The notes under the pieces were generated by a model. That model ran no database searches. It worked only from the letters and a program-made list of their open reading frames with translations, and was not told where the DNA came from. A stretch of DNA of 64,000 nt from Frankiales bacterium. GTDB taxonomy: Bacteria > Actinomycetota > Actinomycetes > Mycobacteriales > SCTD01. The position numbers were made by a program, and so were the translations under genes. Each line of letters opens with the position of its first letter. The stretch's first letter is position 1. Location: positions 55,102-119,101 of the forward strand of contig JAODND010000007.1 of assembly GCA_025465465.1 (NCBI GenBank), written 5' to 3'. Below, piece after piece: positions 12,050-62,553 of the stretch.

Positions 12050-13180
12050 GTGCGCCTGCCCCGACGCGCGCTGATCGCTGCGACCGCCGCGACGGCGGCC
12101 TGTCTCGCCCAGCCCTCGCCCGCGGCCGTACCGCCCGGCCTGCACGTGTCGGGCAACCGGATCGTGAACAGCACCGGCCACACCGTCGTGCTGCGCGGGG
12201 TCAACCGCGCCGGCACCGAGGGAGGCGGCGACTCGAGCGGGGTGCCGGTGACGGCGGCCGAGATCGGCTGGCTCGGCAGCGACCACGCCACCTCCTGGCA
12301 CGCCGGTGCCGTGCGGGTGCTCGTCGGCGAGGCGCAGTGGACCGGGGCCTGCACGGCCCTGGCGGACCAGCCGTCGACCTACCGGAAGAGGATCGACGCC
12401 GAGGTCCGCTGGATCACCGCGCGCAGCATGGTCGCGCTCGTCGACCTGCACACCGGCACGGCCGGGTGCGCCAACGTCGGCCGGCACGCCATGCCCGACG
12501 CGCCGGTGGCCCAGCAGTTCTGGAGCTCGGTCGCGAGGCACTTCGCCGCCAATCCGCGGGTGGCCTTCGAGCTCTACAACGAGCCGCACTGGGTCTCGGA
12601 GCAGATCTGGCGAGACGGTACGCCGAAGGCGACCTTCCAGGACTGCGACCCGACGCTGCCACTGACCGCCCGGGTCGTCTGTCAGGCCACGCAGCCGAGG
12701 TACCGGGCCGCCGGGATGCAGGAGCTCTACGACCTCGTGACCAGGACCGCACCCGGCCACCTGGTGGTCGTCGACGCCTACGACTGGGCCACCGCGCCGC
12801 CCGTCCAGCTGCTGCGCGGCCATCCCGTCTACGCCATGCACCCGTACTCCTGCCCCGGTCCCGGAGCGTGCCAGAACGAGGGCTATGCGCACGCCAACCT
12901 CGACCTGCTCAAGCGCTGGGTGCCGATCGCGAAGAAGGCACCGGTCTGGGTGACCGAGTTCGGCTGGCCCTCGAAGGCCGGAGTCCGCGATATCGACGGC
13001 TCCGGCTACTACCGCGAGACGCTGTCGTTCCTGGAGTCCCAGAAGCCCGCGTGGGGCTGGCTCGCCTTCGCCTTCGACGGCTCGGACAAGGGTGCGTTCA
13101 CCCTCACGTCGGACACCTCCACCTATGCCCCGAACTCGACCGGCGTGCCGGTCTACCGCGCGTTGCGCCGATTCTCCTGA
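12050..13180 (+). CDS. secreted glycoside hydrolase family 5-like (cellulase family)
   Basis: Signal peptide; FELYNEP acid/base motif and VTEFGW nucleophile motif. Confidence 0.7.
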   Translation: MRLPRRALIAATAATAACLAQPSPAAVPPGLHVSGNRIVNSTGHTVVLRGVNRAGTEGGGDSSGVPVTAAEIGWLGSDHATSWHAGAVRVLVGEAQWTGACTALADQPSTYRKRIDAEVRWITARSMVALVDLHTGTAGCANVGRHAMPDAPVAQQFWSSVARHFAANPRVAFELYNEPHWVSEQIWRDGTPKATFQDCDPTLPLTARVVCQATQPRYRAAGMQELYDLVTRTAPGHLVVVDAYDWATAPPVQLLRGHPVYAMHPYSCPGPGACQNEGYAHANLDLLKRWVPIAKKAPVWVTEFGWPSKAGVRDIDGSGYYRETLSFLESQKPAWGWLAFAFDGSDKGAFTLTSDTSTYAPNSTGVPVYRALRRFS

Positions 13181-50631: not shown

Positions 50632-51657
50632 TCAGCCGAAGAAGACCTCGGCCTCCTTGTAGCGGTCCAGCGGGACCAGCTTGAGCTCCTTGGTCGCCGC
50701 CGACAGCGGCACCCGCACGATGTCCGCGCCCTGCAGCGCGACCATCACGCCGCTGTCGCCCTCGTGCACGGCGTCGATCGCGTGCAGCCCGAAGCGGGTC
50801 GCGAGGATCCGGTCGTACGCCGTCGGCGTGCCGCCACGCTGGACGTGACCCAGCACCGTCTGCCGTGACTCATACCCGGTGCGTGCCTCGATCTCGCGCT
50901 CGAGCACCTGACCGATGCCACCGAGCCGGACGTGCCCGAACGCGTCCAGCTCGCCCTCCTGCATCGCCATCGTGCCCTCGGCCGGCGTCGCTCCCTCCGC
51001 CACCACGATGATCGGCGCGTAGTGCCGCTCGAAGCGCTGCTTGACGTATTCGCAGACCTGGTCGATGTCGAAGGGCCGCTCCGGGATGAGGATGACGTTG
51101 GCGCCGCCGGCGAGCCCGGAGTGCAGCGCGATCCAGCCGGCGTGCCGCCCCATCACCTCGACGATCAGCGCCCGGTGGTGGGACTCGGCCGTCGTGTGCA
51201 GCCGGTCGATCGCGTCGACGGCGATCTGCACGGCGGTGTCGAAGCCGAACGTGTAGTCCGTCGCGTTGAGGTCGTTGTCGATGGTCTTCGGCACCCCGAC
51301 GACGTTGAGCCCCTGGTCGGCGAGCGCGGTCGCGACGCCCAGGGTGTCCTCGCCGCCGATGGCGACCAGGGCGTCCACCCCGAGCGCCTCGAGGTTCTCG
51401 CGGATGCGGGCGACGCCGCCCTCCACCTTGAGCGGGTTGGTCCGGGAGGAGCCGAGGATCGTGCCGCCGCGCGGCAGGATCCCGCGGACCGCGGGGACGT
51501 CGAGCGGCATGGTCACGCCCTCGAGCGGTCCCTTCCAGCCGTCCCGGAAGCCCACGAACTCGTGTCCGTAGACCTCCGCTCCCTTTCGCACGACCGCGCG
51601 GATGACCGCGTTGAGACCGGGGCAGTCGCCCCCTCCTGTGAGCACACCGATACGCAT
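50632..51657 (-). CDS. pfkA: 6-phosphofructokinase
   Basis: MRIGVLTGGGDCPGLNAVIR, GGEDT, PKTIDND, MGR motifs; ATG at 51657. Confidence 0.9.
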   Translation of the reverse strand: MRIGVLTGGGDCPGLNAVIRAVVRKGAEVYGHEFVGFRDGWKGPLEGVTMPLDVPAVRGILPRGGTILGSSRTNPLKVEGGVARIRENLEALGVDALVAIGGEDTLGVATALADQGLNVVGVPKTIDNDLNATDYTFGFDTAVQIAVDAIDRLHTTAESHHRALIVEVMGRHAGWIALHSGLAGGANVILIPERPFDIDQVCEYVKQRFERHYAPIIVVAEGATPAEGTMAMQEGELDAFGHVRLGGIGQVLEREIEARTGYESRQTVLGHVQRGGTPTAYDRILATRFGLHAIDAVHEGDSGVMVALQGADIVRVPLSAATKELKLVPLDRYKEAEVFFG

Positions 51658-51709
51658 GAGCCCAGCCTTGCAGGTCAAGAGCCGGCTGCAACAGGTCGAA
51701 GCACCAGAC

Positions 51710-52744
51710 GTGCGTGTCCGCCGGTTGTTGACTGCTGCCCTGGTGGCGGCAGCGCTGCCGTGCCTGCCCACCGCAGCGCACGCCGCACCTGCGCCTCCGC
51801 GCCCTCTCACCAGTGCCGACCTGCCCGCCCTCACCGCGGAGCTGGCGCGGATCACGACGCACGCGCAGCAGCTCGCCGACGAGCTGGACCGCGCCGCGGC
51901 GCAGGACGGTGGCCTGCGGGTCGCCTACGCCCGTCTGGACGACGCTCGGTATGCCGCGCAGCAGGCCCTCGACCTCCGCGCCCGCGCGGTCTACATGGCC
52001 AGCGGCACCCAGCAGTTCAGCACCTGGCAGTACCAGCTGGCCGCGCCGACGGCTCAGGCCCTCGCGCAGCACGCGGCCGAGGCCGGGATGACCGTCGACC
52101 AGAGCCTCGTCGACGACGTCGCGCTCCAGACCCGGGCCGTCGCGCAGCTGCAGCGGCAGGCGGAGGCGTTCCGCAAGCGGCTCATGACGCAGGCCCGCGG
52201 CGTCCTGGCCGAGGAGGAGACGGCCCGCGACCTCTACCTGCAGGCCAAGGCGATCGCCGACGCCGAGCACCTGGCCGCCGTCCAGGCCCAGCTCGAGGCG
52301 CAGCGCAGCCTGCTCGACAGCGTCTCGACCGCCGTCACCCTCTCGTTGACGCCGGCCCAGACGGAGCGGGCGCGACAGGCGCTGGAGATGCAGGCGCCGG
52401 TCATCGCGCTGCTGGAGCAGGCCGCTGGCGCCATCCCCGCGGGCTACCGGTCGACCGGCCAGACGGCCTCGGGCGTGGCGTCGTGGTACGGCCCCGGCTT
52501 CGTCGGCCGGCCGACCGCCTCCGGGGCGCCCTATGACCCCGAGCGCCTGACCTGCGCCAACAAGGAGCTCCCGCTCGGCACCGTCATCCACGTGACCGGC
52601 AACGGGTTTGCGGTGAACTGCCTCGTCAACGACCGCGGGCCCTATGTCGACGGCCGCATCCTCGACCTGAGCCGGGCCGGCTCACGTGCCCTCGGCTACT
52701 CCGGCCTCGCCCAGGTCACCCTCGAGGTCCTCACCCCAGCCTGA
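51710..52744 (+). CDS. secreted coiled-coil + RlpA-like (DPBB) lytic transglycosylase-like protein
   Basis: Signal VRVRRLLTAALVAAALPCLPTAAHA. C-terminal ASWYGPGFVGRPTASG...NDRGPYVDGRILDLS. An alt ATG at 51656 shares CATG with pfkA. Confidence 0.75.
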   Translation: MRVRRLLTAALVAAALPCLPTAAHAAPAPPRPLTSADLPALTAELARITTHAQQLADELDRAAAQDGGLRVAYARLDDARYAAQQALDLRARAVYMASGTQQFSTWQYQLAAPTAQALAQHAAEAGMTVDQSLVDDVALQTRAVAQLQRQAEAFRKRLMTQARGVLAEEETARDLYLQAKAIADAEHLAAVQAQLEAQRSLLDSVSTAVTLSLTPAQTERARQALEMQAPVIALLEQAAGAIPAGYRSTGQTASGVASWYGPGFVGRPTASGAPYDPERLTCANKELPLGTVIHVTGNGFAVNCLVNDRGPYVDGRILDLSRAGSRALGYSGLAQVTLEVLTPA

Positions 52745-52755
52745 CCCCCCTGCGC

Positions 52756-52816
52756 GTGGATGTGAACTGGGCGGGTCGCGGAGCTCGCTCCGGCGACCCC
52801 GCCAGTTCACATCCAC
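52756..52816 (+). repeat. long hairpin element, copy A (24-nt arms, 22/24 paired, 13-nt palindromic loop)
   Basis: GTGGATGTGAACTGGGCGGGTCGC ... GCGACCCCGCCAGTTCACATCCAC, preceded by TGA-CCCCCC. Confidence 0.9.
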
Positions 52817-53038
52817 CGGGGCGCTGATGAGCTTCTGTGCCTTTCGTACTAGGGACACGTCGGTGAATGCTGGGATCTGTCGCGTCGGGCGCGGGCACAC
52901 GTCGGAGTCAGCAATGACCATCTTCGACGGGATCGTTGCTGCGTGCTGGAGCCCGGCCTACCGTCCGGCCGGGGCCCGACAACTGCGCGCCGGTCAAGGT
53001 CCCGAAGCCATCGCCGGCGAAAAGCCAGGGGGAGATCC

Positions 53039-53800
53039 GTGACCGGTCCAGGAGCACACGCGAGGGTCGTCAGATACACGGTCGCGGGGGGCCTTGCGGC
53101 GTCGCTCGTCCTGCTGGCCCCGGGAGCTTCCGCCGCTCCCCCGAGCAGTTCGCTGGTCGCCACGCCGACCTCGGTCAGCCTGGACATCGGCGGGCCGACG
53201 AGCGCGCCGGTGTCGGTCGGCCTCGACGCGGGCTGTCTCAACGTCTTCATCCACGGACAGGCCTACAGCGTGGCGTCGGTCAGCCAGAACACAGCGGTGG
53301 CCACCGCGAGCCCGGACGTGTCCCCCGGCATCCACTGCGGTGACACCACGTCGGTCACCGTGGCGACGTCCGCCTACTCGGCTAACCCGACTGCCGCCTG
53401 TGCCGCTGTGGCTGCCAGTCCGACCACGGTGACGTTCACGCCGGTCGCAGGTCCCAGCGGGATCCAGAAGAAGCTCGTCGGCACCAGCATCCAGGTGACG
53501 GTCACCAACACCGGAGGCCTCCTGTGCGGCGGCGGTGGTGGTGGCGGTGGCGGTGGCGGTGGCAGCAACCCGGCAGCGCCGGCAGTCGCCAACGCCTACC
53601 TCAACGCCAACGCAGCGCTGTCCGCGGCCTGCAAGGCGGCGTTCGGCAACAGCAAGTCCTGGCGGGGTGCTCTCATCAGCTCCATCGCGGGCTGGATGCC
53701 CAAGCCGGAGAGCGTCAAGGACGACGCCTCGCTCTACCCGGACTGGGTCGGGTTCGTCCAGGACCACGTGAACACAGTGTGCGGATACACGCCGGTCTAG
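53039..53800 (+). CDS. secreted two-domain protein with Gly12 linker, unknown function
   Basis: GTG at 53039 preceded by GGGGGAG; signal ...LVLLAPGASA; the N-terminal part of the track ORF is Arg-rich non-coding. Confidence 0.6.
   Translation: MTGPGAHARVVRYTVAGGLAASLVLLAPGASAAPPSSSLVATPTSVSLDIGGPTSAPVSVGLDAGCLNVFIHGQAYSVASVSQNTAVATASPDVSPGIHCGDTTSVTVATSAYSANPTAACAAVAASPTTVTFTPVAGPSGIQKKLVGTSIQVTVTNTGGLLCGGGGGGGGGGGGSNPAAPAVANAYLNANAALSAACKAAFGNSKSWRGALISSIAGWMPKPESVKDDASLYPDWVGFVQDHVNTVCGYTPV
53528..53563 (+). repeat. (GGY)12 tract encoding Gly12
   Basis: ggcggcggtggtggtggcggtggcggtggcggtggc. Confidence 0.95.
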
Positions 53801-53858
53801 CAGTGCCGAGGGGTGACCCAGCAGCTCGCCGCTGCTCCAGCGTGACGGCGGACCCCGA

Positions 53859-60336: not shown

Positions 60337-61566
60337 GTGACCGCCAGTGAGAGCCTGGAAGCCCGTGGGCACCTGATGGACTCGGGCGTGCTGGCGTCGG
60401 TGCTCGACGACGTGCTGGCCTACGGCGGCGACTACCGCATCGACCAGCTCGACGTCGGCAAGCGGCACGAAGACGAATCGTATGCCCGGATCATCGTGTC
60501 GGCCGACGACGACGAGTCGCTGCAGCGGCTCCTGATGCGGCTGCAGATCCACGGCATGAACCAGGTCGACCCGGGTGAGGCGGTGCTGCGGCCGTGCGAC
60601 CGCGACGGCGTCTTCCCCGACGACTTCTACTCGACCACCAACCTCGAGACCGTCGTCCGGCTCGGCGGTCAGTGGGTGCCGGTCGAGCAGCCCGAGATGG
60701 ACTGCGGCCTCGTCGTCAAGGGCGAGCGGGTCCACACCGTGCCGGTGTCGGACGTGCGCACCGGCCAGCAGGTCGTGTGCGGAGCCTCCGGCGTCAAGGT
60801 GGTGCTGCCGGTGCGGGAGCACTCGACGTCGGAGGACGCCTTCGGGTTCATGGGCTCGACCGTCTCGTCGGAGAAGCCGCAGGCCCTGCTGGTACGGCAG
60901 ATCGCGCAGCGGATGCGCGAGGTCAAGGGCGACGGCCAGAAGGTCCTGTGGGTCGGCGGACCCGGCATCGTGCACACCGGCGCGGCGCCGGCGTTCACCA
61001 CCTTGGTCGAGGCGGGCTATGTCGACGTGCTGTTCGCCGGCAACGCCCTGGCCACCCACGACATCGAGGCGGCGCTCTACGGCACGTCGCTGGGCGTCGA
61101 CCTCACGATGGGCCGGGGCGTCGAGCACGGCCACGAGCACCACATCCGCGCCATCAACACGATCCGCCGTGAGGGCTCGATCGCGGCCGCCGTCAACAGC
61201 GGCGTGCTGACGAGCGGCATCATGCACTCGTTGGTCAAGGGCGGCCACAAGATCGTGCTCGTCGGCTCCGTGCGCGACGACGGCCCGCTGCCCGACGTCT
61301 ACACCGACGTCATCGAGGGCCAGCGCGCGATGCGGGCCGAGCTGCCCGGCGTCGGCTTCGCCATCATGGTCGCGACGATGCTGCACTCCATCGCCACCGG
61401 CAACATCCTGCCCGCATCGGTCCCGCTGGTCTGCGTCGACATCAACCCGGCGACCGTCACCAAGCTCGCGGACCGCGGCAGCGCCCAGGCCGTCGGCATC
61501 GTCACCGACATCGGCCTGTTCCTCGAGCAACTAGCCCGCGAGCTCGTCCCTTCGTACCGCTCCTAA
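60337..61566 (+). CDS. LOR/SDH-domain (TIGR00300-like) protein, putative ornithine cyclodeaminase-type enzyme
   Basis: GHLMDSGVL...YRI N-domain and deoxyhypusine-synthase-like C-domain (VLWVGGPGIVHTG...LFAGNALATHD); GAGGGA SD before the GTG at 60337. Confidence 0.7.
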   Translation: MTASESLEARGHLMDSGVLASVLDDVLAYGGDYRIDQLDVGKRHEDESYARIIVSADDDESLQRLLMRLQIHGMNQVDPGEAVLRPCDRDGVFPDDFYSTTNLETVVRLGGQWVPVEQPEMDCGLVVKGERVHTVPVSDVRTGQQVVCGASGVKVVLPVREHSTSEDAFGFMGSTVSSEKPQALLVRQIAQRMREVKGDGQKVLWVGGPGIVHTGAAPAFTTLVEAGYVDVLFAGNALATHDIEAALYGTSLGVDLTMGRGVEHGHEHHIRAINTIRREGSIAAAVNSGVLTSGIMHSLVKGGHKIVLVGSVRDDGPLPDVYTDVIEGQRAMRAELPGVGFAIMVATMLHSIATGNILPASVPLVCVDINPATVTKLADRGSAQAVGIVTDIGLFLEQLARELVPSYRS

Positions 61567-61575
61567 CCCCCCGCC

Positions 61576-61636
61576 GTGGATGTGGACAGGTGGGGTGCCT
61601 GGACGCACTCTCGCGACCCCATCTGTCTACATTCAC
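61576..61636 (+). repeat. long hairpin element, copy B (21-nt arms incl. 3 G-U pairs on the plus strand, 19-nt loop)
   Basis: GTGGATGTGGACAGGTGGGGT ... ACCCCATCTGTCTACATTCAC, preceded by TAA-CCCCCC. Confidence 0.85.
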
Positions 61637-62553
61637 GGCGTGATCCGGGTGCCGGCCTTGCCGGACAGGATGGCGGCGGCATCGGAGAGGGCACCGATGG
61701 CGGCCGCGCCACCCGCGCGTACGAAGGACACGCAGGCCTCGACCTTCGGGCCCATCGAGCCCTCGGGAAACTCCCCGGCCCGCAGCCAGCCCAGAGCCTC
61801 CGCCACCGTCATCGTCGACAGCCCGCGCGCGGCAGCCGTCCCGTAGCCGATCTGCACCTGCGCCGCCTCGGTCAGCACCAGGAGCAGGTCGGCGCCGACG
61901 GACGTGGCGAGCAGCGCGGCGGTGCGGTCCTTGTCGATGACGGCCTCGACACCGCGCAGCTGCCCGCGGTACTCCACGACCGGCACCCCACCGCCACCGG
62001 CCGCGACGACGACGTGGCCGCTGTCGACGAGTGCCCGCAGCGGCTCGTCCTCGACGATCCGCAGCGGTCGGGGTGACGCGACGACCCGGCGCCAGCGACC
62101 GTCGGGCTGGATCGCGAACACATGGCCCGAGGCCTGCGCGATCGCCTGCGCCTCCGGCCGCTCATAAGAGGGGCCCACCGGTTTGGAGGGCCGACGGAAC
62201 GCAGCCGACCGGCCGTCCACCACCACCTGGGTGAGGAGCGACAGCACCCGCGTCGGGCGGGGCAGCGCGTTGTCGAGCGCCTGGGCGACGAGGTAGCCGA
62301 GCTGCCCTTGCGAGAGCGCCCCGCAGACGTCCATCGGCATGGGGGGTACGTCGGCCGCGGCCCGCTCCTGCTGCAGCAGCAGCCGGCCGACCTGCGGCCC
62401 GTTCCCGTGGGTGAGCACGAGCGAGTGCCCGTCGGTGACCAGTGCGGCCAAAGCGGAAGCGGCCACCGACAGCGACGAGCGCATCTCCTCGACGGAGCCG
62501 GTGCCGCCGGCAGGGGACAGCGCGTTGCCCCCGAGGGCGACGACCAGCCGCAC
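61633..62553 (-). CDS. arcC: carbamate kinase
   Basis: VVALGGNAL, THGNGPQVG, GGGGVPV, IDKD motifs; GTG at 62553. Confidence 0.85.
   Translation of the reverse strand: MRLVVALGGNALSPAGGTGSVEEMRSSLSVAASALAALVTDGHSLVLTHGNGPQVGRLLLQQERAAADVPPMPMDVCGALSQGQLGYLVAQALDNALPRPTRVLSLLTQVVVDGRSAAFRRPSKPVGPSYERPEAQAIAQASGHVFAIQPDGRWRRVVASPRPLRIVEDEPLRALVDSGHVVVAAGGGGVPVVEYRGQLRGVEAVIDKDRTAALLATSVGADLLLVLTEAAQVQIGYGTAAARGLSTMTVAEALGWLRAGEFPEGSMGPKVEACVSFVRAGGAAAIGALSDAAAILSGKAGTRITP

What the first reader, a model, noticed from the sequence alone, without database searches (positions are those of the whole stretch)
52745..52816. Hairpin element family, copy A: TGA-CCCCCC followed by a 61-nt near-perfect hairpin
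Directly after the stop of the RlpA-like gene the sequence reads TGA CCCCCC TGCGC, then GTGGATGTGAACTGGGCGGGTCGC - GGAGCTCGCTCCG - GCGACCCCGCCAGTTCACATCCAC. That gives 22 of 24 arm positions paired, and the 13-nt loop is itself palindromic.

A second element with the same layout and the same arm ends (GTGGATGTG ... CAyATyCAC) occurs at 61564-61636. It also starts with stop-CCCCCC.

Between the two copies the interior of the stem differs at paired positions: AACTGG/CCAGTT versus GACAGG/TCTGTC. Arm positions 10 and 13 change on both sides. This compensatory behaviour is expected for a selected structure.
Basis: seen in the sequence. Interest (0 to 1): 0.6.

Follow-up and report, generated by a model that had tools for sequence, protein, structure and literature searches.

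The report
Mobile 61-nt gene-end hairpin repeat family
The two hairpins belong to a small family of 61-base palindromic DNA repeats that sit just behind stop codons in a group of uncultured soil actinobacteria and come and go between close strains, a new example of a known kind of bacterial repeat (REP/TRIT-like).

Summary
Both hairpins are real: A at 52756-52816 and B at 61576-61636. Each is exactly 61 nt, they align without gaps (42/61 identical), and fold z is -6 to -7.

They belong to a dispersed family. I recovered seven full copies at six loci and saw two more in metagenome contigs, all in one species complex (window genome; Frankiales MAG BP_344, 95% identical; JGI/soil relatives).

- **Anatomy:** the basal 21 bp are sequence-conserved. 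The apical 19 nt are unrelated between loci, yet total length is always 61.
- **Position:** copies lie 2-40 nt behind stop codons, mostly in a CC-TGA/TAA-CC context, in either orientation. No U-tract follows.
- **Turnover:** copy A is missing from close strains (62 nt absent, ATCCAC retained). The copy between rne and rplU in BP_344 is absent from all relatives and outgroups, so it is a derived gain without target duplication.
- **Pairing:** 88% of cells pair and four pairs change on both sides. G·T asymmetry follows element orientation, not transcription.

Verdict: a mobile, or at least copy-and-paste, REP/TRIT-like gene-end palindrome. It probably serves as a transcript 3'-end hairpin, which is inferred. 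How it spreads is unresolved. It is a new member of a known kind.

The parts
52742..52744 (+). TGA stop of the RlpA-like (DPBB_1) gene, in the context CC-TGA-CC
   Evidence: ORF 51602-52744 with Pfam DPBB_1, E = 3.9e-15; sequence
52745..52755 (+). C-rich spacer CCCCCCTGCGC between stop and hairpin. Its first four C (52745-52748) are present in strains that lack the element.
52756..52816 (+). Element copy A, 61 nt. 5' arm 52756-52779, palindromic apex 52780-52792, 3' arm 52793-52816.
   Evidence: 79.5 bits
52749..52810 (+). The 62-nt segment absent from related strains. The empty allele reads ...CCTGACCCC|ATCCACCGGGGC...
   Evidence: Contigs of soil runs X2 (546 nt, depth 30), X3 (789 nt, depth 43) and X4 (220 nt) join 52747/8 to 52810/1
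52817..52821 (+). CGGGG, partner of the upstream C-run (outer stem). It is present in the empty allele, so it is part of the pre-existing site.
   Evidence: Fold; empty allele; L190 has TGACCCCC-TTTTTTG-CGGGGTCA
61564..61566 (+). TAA stop of the ArgZ/LOR-SDH-like (TIGR00300-type) gene, in the context CC-TAA-CC
61567..61575 (+). C-rich spacer CCCCCCGCC. CGCC pairs with GGCG at 61637-61640.
61576..61636 (+). Element copy B, 61 nt. It has three G·T pairs on the + strand and an unpaired apex. It is conserved in BP_344 (L107 1046-1106) and in soil strains X2/X3.
   Evidence: (88 bits)
61633..61635 (-). Stop codon (TGA on the minus strand) of the convergent amino-acid/carbamate kinase gene, lying inside the 3' arm of copy B
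   Evidence: ORF list, Pfam AA_kinase, sequence. Relatives L203/L204 end the protein at the same position.

Best explanation
**What it is.** A and B are members of a lineage-specific family of 61-bp palindromic intergenic repeats, of the REP/TRIT kind. It is carried by a species complex of uncultured soil Frankiales-like actinobacteria.

**Anatomy.** Each copy has an invariant 5' end (C)GTGGATGTG and about 21 sequence-conserved basal stem pairs. The 19-nt apex differs from locus to locus, but total length is always 61.

**Shown.**
- The family is dispersed over unlinked loci.
- It sits in the short gap just behind stop codons, mostly CC-TGA/TAA-CC, often inside a pre-existing C-run...G-run mini-hairpin.
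- It occurs in either orientation.
- It is gained and lost between strains that are at least 94% identical. At least one copy (rne-rplU) is a derived insertion without target-site duplication.

**Inferred.**
- It spreads by copy-and-paste. Three junctions show a C-run on one side and CAC/ATCCAC/TCA on the other, matching the element's own end. This fits microhomology-guided template switching or ectopic conversion, or an unidentified hairpin-specific enzyme.
- Once inserted it is transcribed into the 3' UTR. There the 21-29-bp stem would act as a 3'-end hairpin: an exonuclease barrier, an RNase III substrate, or an aid to two-way termination between convergent genes. This is what is now proposed for TRIT and REP.
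For: **Family and distribution.**
- The pattern scan of 185,579 species genomes gave real hairpin hits only in MAG Frankiales bacterium BP_344, at 4 loci.
- The covariance model finds another copy in JGI contig L191, 15924-15984, at 55.7 bits.
- Two further paralogues appear in soil-run contigs.
- All 7 full copies are exactly 61 nt.

**Position.** Distance from the nearest stop is 11 nt (A) and 9 nt (B). It is 2 nt after the rne stop (L063), 3 nt (L191c), 34 nt (L062) and 39 nt (L039).

**Orientation.** Three copies are forward and three reverse relative to the upstream gene.

**Turnover.**
- Empty site A is seen in X2, X3 and X4.
- The empty rne-rplU site is seen in X1, X3, L191 and L192. 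The more distant L193-L202 also lack the element. All carry TGACC-G(T/A)GC-CGGGG or TGA-(A)GG(C/T)GCCG there, so the BP_344/X14 copy is a gain.

**Pairing.** 88% of cells pair, against 35-46% when the partner is slid. The covariation score beats 500 of 500 shuffles. Paralogue P2 has fully compensated 'type II' arms, ACATATGGGCT/AGCCCATATGT.

**Not a canonical terminator.** No U-tract follows any copy.

**Analogy.** TRIT is a sequence-conserved, palindromic, stop-codon-hugging hairpin with 147 copies in M. tuberculosis (PMC3152330). It is now suggested to be RNase III-processed (PMC13714241).
Against: - Only 8 loci are documented.
The JGI metagenome scan found no member.
- No transcript data exist for any copy, so the RNA role is pure analogy.
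- The two empty-site junctions are not uniform. At A, 62 nt are inserted cleanly. At rne, 62 nt replace 4 nt. This does not fit one precise transposition chemistry.
- The polarity of site A is ambiguous. The retained ATCCAC could be a deletion remnant.
- The two polymorphic copies have unrelated apices, so they are not fresh copies of one master.
- A strain variant of the L062 copy shows 3 uncompensated arm changes, so constraint on each single copy is weak.
Confidence: 0.7

Rival explanations
1. The family is a REP/REPIN-type non-autonomous element. It would be mobilised in trans as single-stranded DNA by a dedicated HUH/Y1 transposase (RAYT or IS200/IS605-type) encoded elsewhere in the genome.
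For: - It is an extragenic palindrome with invariant ends and a variable centre, found in both orientations.
- Neither empty site shows a target-site duplication.
- Insertion lies next to a short specific sequence, CC-stop-CC on one side and (ATC)CAC on the other.
- REPINs are likewise two inverted conserved arms around a spacer (PMC3116915, abstract seen).
Against: - The element starts CGTGGATG, with no GTAG or CGTC tag (PMC3733652 defines these tags).
- The two junctions differ: a clean 62-nt insertion at A, and 62 nt replacing GTGC at rne. Peel-and-paste chemistry is seamless.
- The apices of the two polymorphic copies are unrelated.
- No transposase appears among the called genes of about 80 kb of related contigs.
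- The genome itself could not be searched.
Confidence: 0.2
2. The hairpins are ordinary, vertically inherited gene-specific transcription terminators or 3'-UTR stabilisers. They would resemble one another only through convergent selection.
For: - They lie directly behind stop codons or between convergent genes.
- The stems are very stable.
- Compensatory changes occur between A and B and between the B orthologues.
Against: - A 21-nt arm sequence is shared by unlinked loci. The pattern is expected 0 times by chance.
- All copies have the identical length of 61 nt.
- There is no U-tract. Mycobacterial RNA polymerase needs one in vitro (PMC3993855, abstract).
- The rne-rplU copy is a recent gain.
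- Orientation is not tied to transcription.
Confidence: 0.07
3. The palindrome is a double-stranded DNA binding site. A dimeric regulator or nucleoid protein would bind two inverted half-sites GTGGATGTGRAC at fixed spacing.
For: The outer 12 bp of both arms are invariant and their spacing is strictly constant, since all copies are 61 bp.
Against: - The sites lie at gene 3' ends, not at promoters.
- The half-sites are about 49 bp apart.
- Interior arm positions vary in a mirrored, pairing-preserving way. Independent half-sites would not require this.
- Copies are strain-polymorphic.
Confidence: 0.03

Closest known systems
TRIT, the 'Tuberculosis Rho-independent terminator' motif of Mycobacterium (Gardner et al. 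2011, PMC3152330; re-examined in PMC13714241 and bioRxiv 10.1101/2022.06.01.494293)
   Same: - A sequence-conserved palindromic hairpin repeated through an actinobacterial (Mycobacteriales sensu GTDB) genome.
- Tightly tied to stop codons, bidirectional by its palindromy, and lacking a U-tract.
- Conserved stem sequence, which suggests a trans-acting factor.
- A long perfect stem suited to RNase III.
   Different: - TRIT is reported as restricted to Mycobacterium. It mostly overlaps the coding end (about -8 from the stop) and has 147 copies.
- The present family is in Frankiales-like MAGs. It lies 2-40 nt after the stop, is 61 nt long with a variable apex, and has unknown copy number.
- Sequence homology could not be tested, because no TRIT consensus or model was available.
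REP / REPIN elements with RAYT transposases (Pseudomonas, Enterobacteria; PMC3116915, PMC2817692, PMC3733652)
   Same: Extragenic palindromes with conserved arms and a less conserved centre, found in both orientations, without target duplication, polymorphic between strains, with proposed 3'-UTR roles.
   Different: - There is no GTAG/CGTC tag.
- No RAYT has been identified, and this could not be tested.
- The apex is unrelated between copies rather than family-conserved.
- The junctions are not seamless.
Correia elements (CREE) of Neisseria and ERIC/IRU of enterobacteria
   Same: Small palindromic insertions in transcribed intergenic DNA that differ between close strains. Correia elements are RNase III substrates that shape 3' ends (PMC13714241).
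   Different: Those elements are 100-155 bp (Correia, PMC13714241) or about 127 bp (ERIC; from my own knowledge). Correia elements have terminal inverted repeats and a TA target duplication (my own knowledge); no duplication is seen here.
Other stop-codon-hugging palindromic repeat families noted earlier in this scan (Gaiellales, Acidimicrobiia and other uncultured actinobacteria)
   Same: Same general kind: lineage-specific hairpin repeats at gene ends, with compensatory arm variants.
   Different: Their sequences and lengths differ. Those notes are unchecked AI leads.

Membership tests
TRIT (Mycobacterium) | Match to the TRIT sequence/structure consensus (RNIE covariance model) | not testable with these tools
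   The consensus exists only as a figure. No supplement is held, TRIT is not in Rfam, and no Rfam family reached its gathering score.
TRIT (Mycobacterium) | Restricted to the genus Mycobacterium | tested here: not met
   The carriers are Frankiales-labelled MAGs and soil contigs.
TRIT (Mycobacterium) | Narrow placement at the stop codon, palindromic and bidirectional, no U-tract | tested here: met
   Copies lie 2-40 nt after stops or overlap a stop (copy B), fold on both strands, and have no T-run.
REP/REPIN-RAYT | GTAG or CGTC tag at one end of the palindrome | tested here: not met
   All copies begin (C)GTGGATGTG.
REP/REPIN-RAYT | Cognate RAYT (Y1 transposase) gene in the genome, flanked by REPs | not testable with these tools
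None appears among the called genes of L190, L191, L203 and L204.
REP/REPIN-RAYT | High copy number (over 100 per genome), extragenic | tested here: inconclusive
   All copies are extragenic. Only 8 loci are documented, about 3 copies per 105 kb of clade DNA searched with the model.
MITE | Terminal inverted repeats plus target-site duplication | tested here: not met
   Neither empty/filled pair shows a duplication.
Canonical intrinsic terminator | GC-rich hairpin followed at once by a U-tract | tested here: not met
   The terminator scan does not call either hairpin, and the downstream sequences are CGGGGCGC and GGCGTGAT.
Integron attC site | R''/R' core sites RYYYAAC...GTTRRRY, cassette array, integrase | tested here: not met
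   The arms read TGTGAAC...GTTCACA, which violates the R/Y pattern. The neighbours are conserved housekeeping genes (rne-rplU, RlpA).

The most novel reading that the evidence does not exclude
The element may be a non-autonomous mobile hairpin that finds its landing site by base pairing. Its invariant 5' end (GTGGAT...) would pair with a CAC/ATCCAC already present in the loop of a small C-run/G-run hairpin right behind a CC-stop-CC. The last 3-6 nt of the 3' arm would then be supplied by the target.

This reading would explain three observations:
- the 5' end is invariant while the 3' end varies (CCAC, TCAC, CCAT, CGAC);
- there is no target duplication;
- the two strain-polymorphic copies are near-perfect palindromes to the tip, whereas fixed copies have decayed apices.

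The engine could be transposase-free template switching, or an undescribed hairpin-guided enzyme that also fixes the length at 61 nt.
Probability: 0.15. Interest if true: 0.65.

Novelty: new member of a known kind. Interest (0 to 1): 0.4.

Why it matters
Stop-codon-adjacent palindromic repeats (REP, TRIT, Correia) are common, but their origin and function are still debated. TRIT in particular has no known way of spreading.

This family offers nucleotide-level filled and empty sites among natural strains, with outgroups that polarise one event as a gain. That is the raw material needed to work out how such hairpins spread in high-GC actinobacteria.

It also bears on annotation. These elements mark gene ends, can supply or overlap stop codons (the kinase gene at copy B), and break short-read assemblies.

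Tried and rejected
- **Exact-protein look-ups.** Look-ups of window proteins (RlpA-like, ArgZ-like, several start codons) found nothing on record.
- **JGI metagenome pattern scan.** It gave 69 hits, all chance matches without a hairpin.
- **Rfam.** There were no gathering-level hits. The permissive hits are generic miRNA-precursor hairpins far below threshold.
- **Plasmids and phages.** Only 21-27-nt apex-level chance matches turned up.
- **RNA evidence.** Metatranscriptome runs hold only contigs of conserved coding parts of relatives, with depth 0 at the hairpins.
- **Element-only bait.** Laying an 81-nt element on run X3 to fish for paralogues laid nothing.
- **Origin of the apex.** A test of whether apex sequences derive from flanking or target DNA found only chance 10-mers.
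- **Target motif in the window.** CTGACC-N-CGGGG is not enriched in the window as a whole: 2 found against 2.2 expected. CCTRACC is mildly enriched: 29 against 16.9.
- **Considered and rejected on the membership tests:** attC, CRISPR, MITE and operator readings.

Full report
**Observation**

- Copy A is a 61-nt hairpin at 52756-52816. It lies 11 nt behind the TGA of an RlpA-like DPBB gene.
- Copy B is a 61-nt hairpin at 61576-61636. It lies 9 nt behind the TAA of an ArgZ/LOR-SDH-like gene.
- Arm complementarity is 92% over 24 nt for A and 88% over 25 nt for B.
- Both fold far better than shuffles, with z of -6.1 and -7.3.
- A and B align without a gap, and 42 of 61 positions are identical.
- The shared end pattern is expected 0.00 times by chance.
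- The stop of the convergent amino-acid-kinase gene (61633-61635, minus strand) lies inside the 3' arm of B.
- No U-tract follows either hairpin, and the terminator scan calls neither.

**Is it a family?**

Only four carried a hairpin, and all four are from MAG 'Frankiales bacterium BP_344'.
- One of the four (L107) is the orthologue of copy B. BP_344 is 95.2% identical to the window over 2.7 kb.
- A covariance model built from the six sequences finds nothing more in the window.
- The model does find a further copy in a JGI contig of a 94%-identical relative: L191 15924-15984, at 55.7 bits.
- Laying soil-metagenome contigs on the L039 copy revealed two more paralogues, P1 and P2, with their own flanks.
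- The JGI metagenome scan, plasmids and phages gave no member.
- The family is therefore real. It has at least 8 loci and, as far as could be searched, is confined to one species complex.

**Anatomy**

- All seven full copies are exactly 61 nt.
- (C)GTGGATGTG at the 5' end is invariant. The basal stem of about 21 bp is conserved.
- The 3' terminus varies: CCAC, TCAC, CCAT, CGAC.
- The central 19 nt are unrelated between loci.
- On 7 sequences, 88% of cells pair, against 35-46% when the partner is slid. Four pairs and seven cells change on both sides. The covariation score is 0.208 against 0.144, and 0 of 500 shuffles reach it.
- P2 carries fully compensated 'type II' arms (ACATATGGGCT/AGCCCATATGT). 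B, L039 and L191c are intermediates with G·T or mismatches at the same positions.

**Context and orientation**

GC3-based gene calls and Pfam place every copy in a short gap behind a stop codon.

| Copy | Position relative to the stop | Neighbours |
|---|---|---|
| A | 11 nt after | RlpA-like gene upstream |
| B | 9 nt after; overlaps the convergent gene's stop | ArgZ-like and amino-acid kinase, convergent |
| L063 | 2 nt after the RNase E stop | about 100 nt before rplU |
| L191c | 3 nt after | glyoxalase-family gene upstream |
| L062 | 34 nt after | 67-aa gene upstream |
| L039 | 39 nt after | DUF5667 gene upstream |

- Five of the eight loci have CC-TGA/TAA-CC at that stop.
- Relative to the upstream gene, three copies are forward and three are reverse.
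- The G·T asymmetry and the fold-energy difference between strands follow the element's own orientation, not the mRNA strand.
- This argues against a strand-specific RNA gene. It fits a DNA element inserted either way round.

**Gain and loss**

*Site A.*
- Contigs of three soil runs join 52748 directly to 52811. The empty allele reads ...CCTGACCCC|ATCCACCGGGGC... with flanks 93-99% identical.
- A 94%-identical relative (L190) lacks the whole stretch 52750-53858. It has a compact stop-to-stop palindrome instead, TGACCCCC-TTTTTTG-CGGGGTCA.

*rne-rplU site.*
- BP_344 and run X14 are filled.
- Runs X1 and X3 and contigs L191 and L192 read TGACC-G(T/A)GC-CGGGGAGGG.
- The more distant L193-L202 read TGA-AGGCGCCG-TTTGAGC or TGA-GGTGCCG-TTTGAGC.
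- The empty state is therefore ancestral, and the element is a derived insertion. Sixty-two nt replace GTGC and there is no target duplication.

*Other sites.*
- Copy B is present in all close strains seen. It is absent from relatives with 91-94% ArgZ-protein identity, where the gene order differs.
- A strain variant of the L062 copy has three uncompensated arm changes.

**Mechanism (inference)**

- At all three sites that can be compared, the target already carried a C-run on one side. On the other side it carried CAC, ATCCAC or TCA where the element's 3' end now lies.
- The outer C/G runs extend the stem.
- This pattern, the non-uniform joints and the variable 3' terminus fit microhomology-guided copy-and-paste into small stop-proximal hairpins.
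- A dedicated hairpin enzyme cannot be excluded, because no genome could be searched.
- The two polymorphic copies (A and L063) are near-perfect palindromes to the tip, while fixed copies have unpaired apices. With n = 2 against 5 this is only suggestive. It hints that copies are born fully paired and that only the basal stem is maintained.

**Function (inference)**

- No usable transcript data exist.
- By position and structure the elements must be transcribed into 3' UTRs.
- Stems of 21-29 bp without a U-tract are poor intrinsic terminators for actinobacterial polymerase (PMC3993855). They are good exonuclease barriers and RNase III substrates, which is the role now proposed for TRIT (PMC13714241).

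**Comparison and verdict**

- The closest known families are TRIT (PMC3152330) and REP/REPIN.
- TRIT membership fails on taxon. It could not be tested on sequence.
- REP membership fails on the end tag. The RAYT criterion could not be tested.
- Earlier notes of this scan list many similar lineage-specific families. I treat those only as leads.
- A relative (L204) carries a different, shorter hairpin family at the same kinds of places: CGTGAACCTGTGCA...TGCACAGGTTCACG, three copies.
- Verdict: a new member of a known kind, of moderate interest. Its most useful feature is the set of natural filled/empty sites with outgroups.

Noticed in passing
window 52750-53858 versus L190 11081-11097: A 94%-identical relative lacks about 1.1 kb: hairpin A, the 220-nt non-coding stretch and the Gly12 secreted-protein gene. 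There the RlpA-like and RNase AS (Rv2179c-like) genes converge on a stop-to-stop palindrome, TGACCCCC-TTTTTTG-CGGGGTCA.
   Followed up: partly
L204 11251-11302, 11325-11376, 12403-12454: A relative (ArgZ-like protein 91% identical) carries a different, shorter hairpin repeat, CGTGAACCTGTGCA(Y)G...C(R)TGCACAGGTTCACG. Two copies lie in tandem behind the ArgZ-like stop and one lies between convergent genes. It shares only GTGAAC with the present family.
   Followed up: partly
L203 about 12885-12945 (behind the amino-acid-kinase stop): Another long hairpin, CATGAACGGAC...GTCCATTCATG, lies 10 nt from a CC-TGA-CC stop. It has loose similarity to the family's arm (ATG..GAC.GG). The model did not detect it. 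It may be a diverged relative.
   Followed up: no
window 42488-42535; L190 816-875: An unrelated perfect 21-bp inverted repeat (GCGCCTACAACAATTGCTGCC) is conserved in the 94% relative. It scores only 16-19 bits with the family model.
   Followed up: partly
window 61633-61638: The carbamate/amino-acid kinase gene ends ...T-R-I-T-P-stop, with its TGA inside the element's 3' arm. L203 has the same C-terminus followed by CC-TGA-CC, so the element abuts or reuses the ancestral stop.
   Followed up: partly
L062 22-126: The L062 copy sits inside an outer inverted repeat, CTCCTCGGCGTCCCCC...GGGGAGACGCCGGGGAG. The composite hairpin spans 105 nt, which is consistent with insertion into a pre-existing hairpin.
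   Followed up: no
window 38186-38292 (minus strand): TPP riboswitch, the only Rfam family above its gathering score in the window (66.1 bits).
   Followed up: no
window 52756 in run X1: A contig in run X1 enters the palindrome from the reverse-complemented downstream flank. This is a de Bruijn-graph flip at the palindrome, and Logan contigs tend to break at these hairpins (depth 0 over copy B in X1).
   Followed up: no
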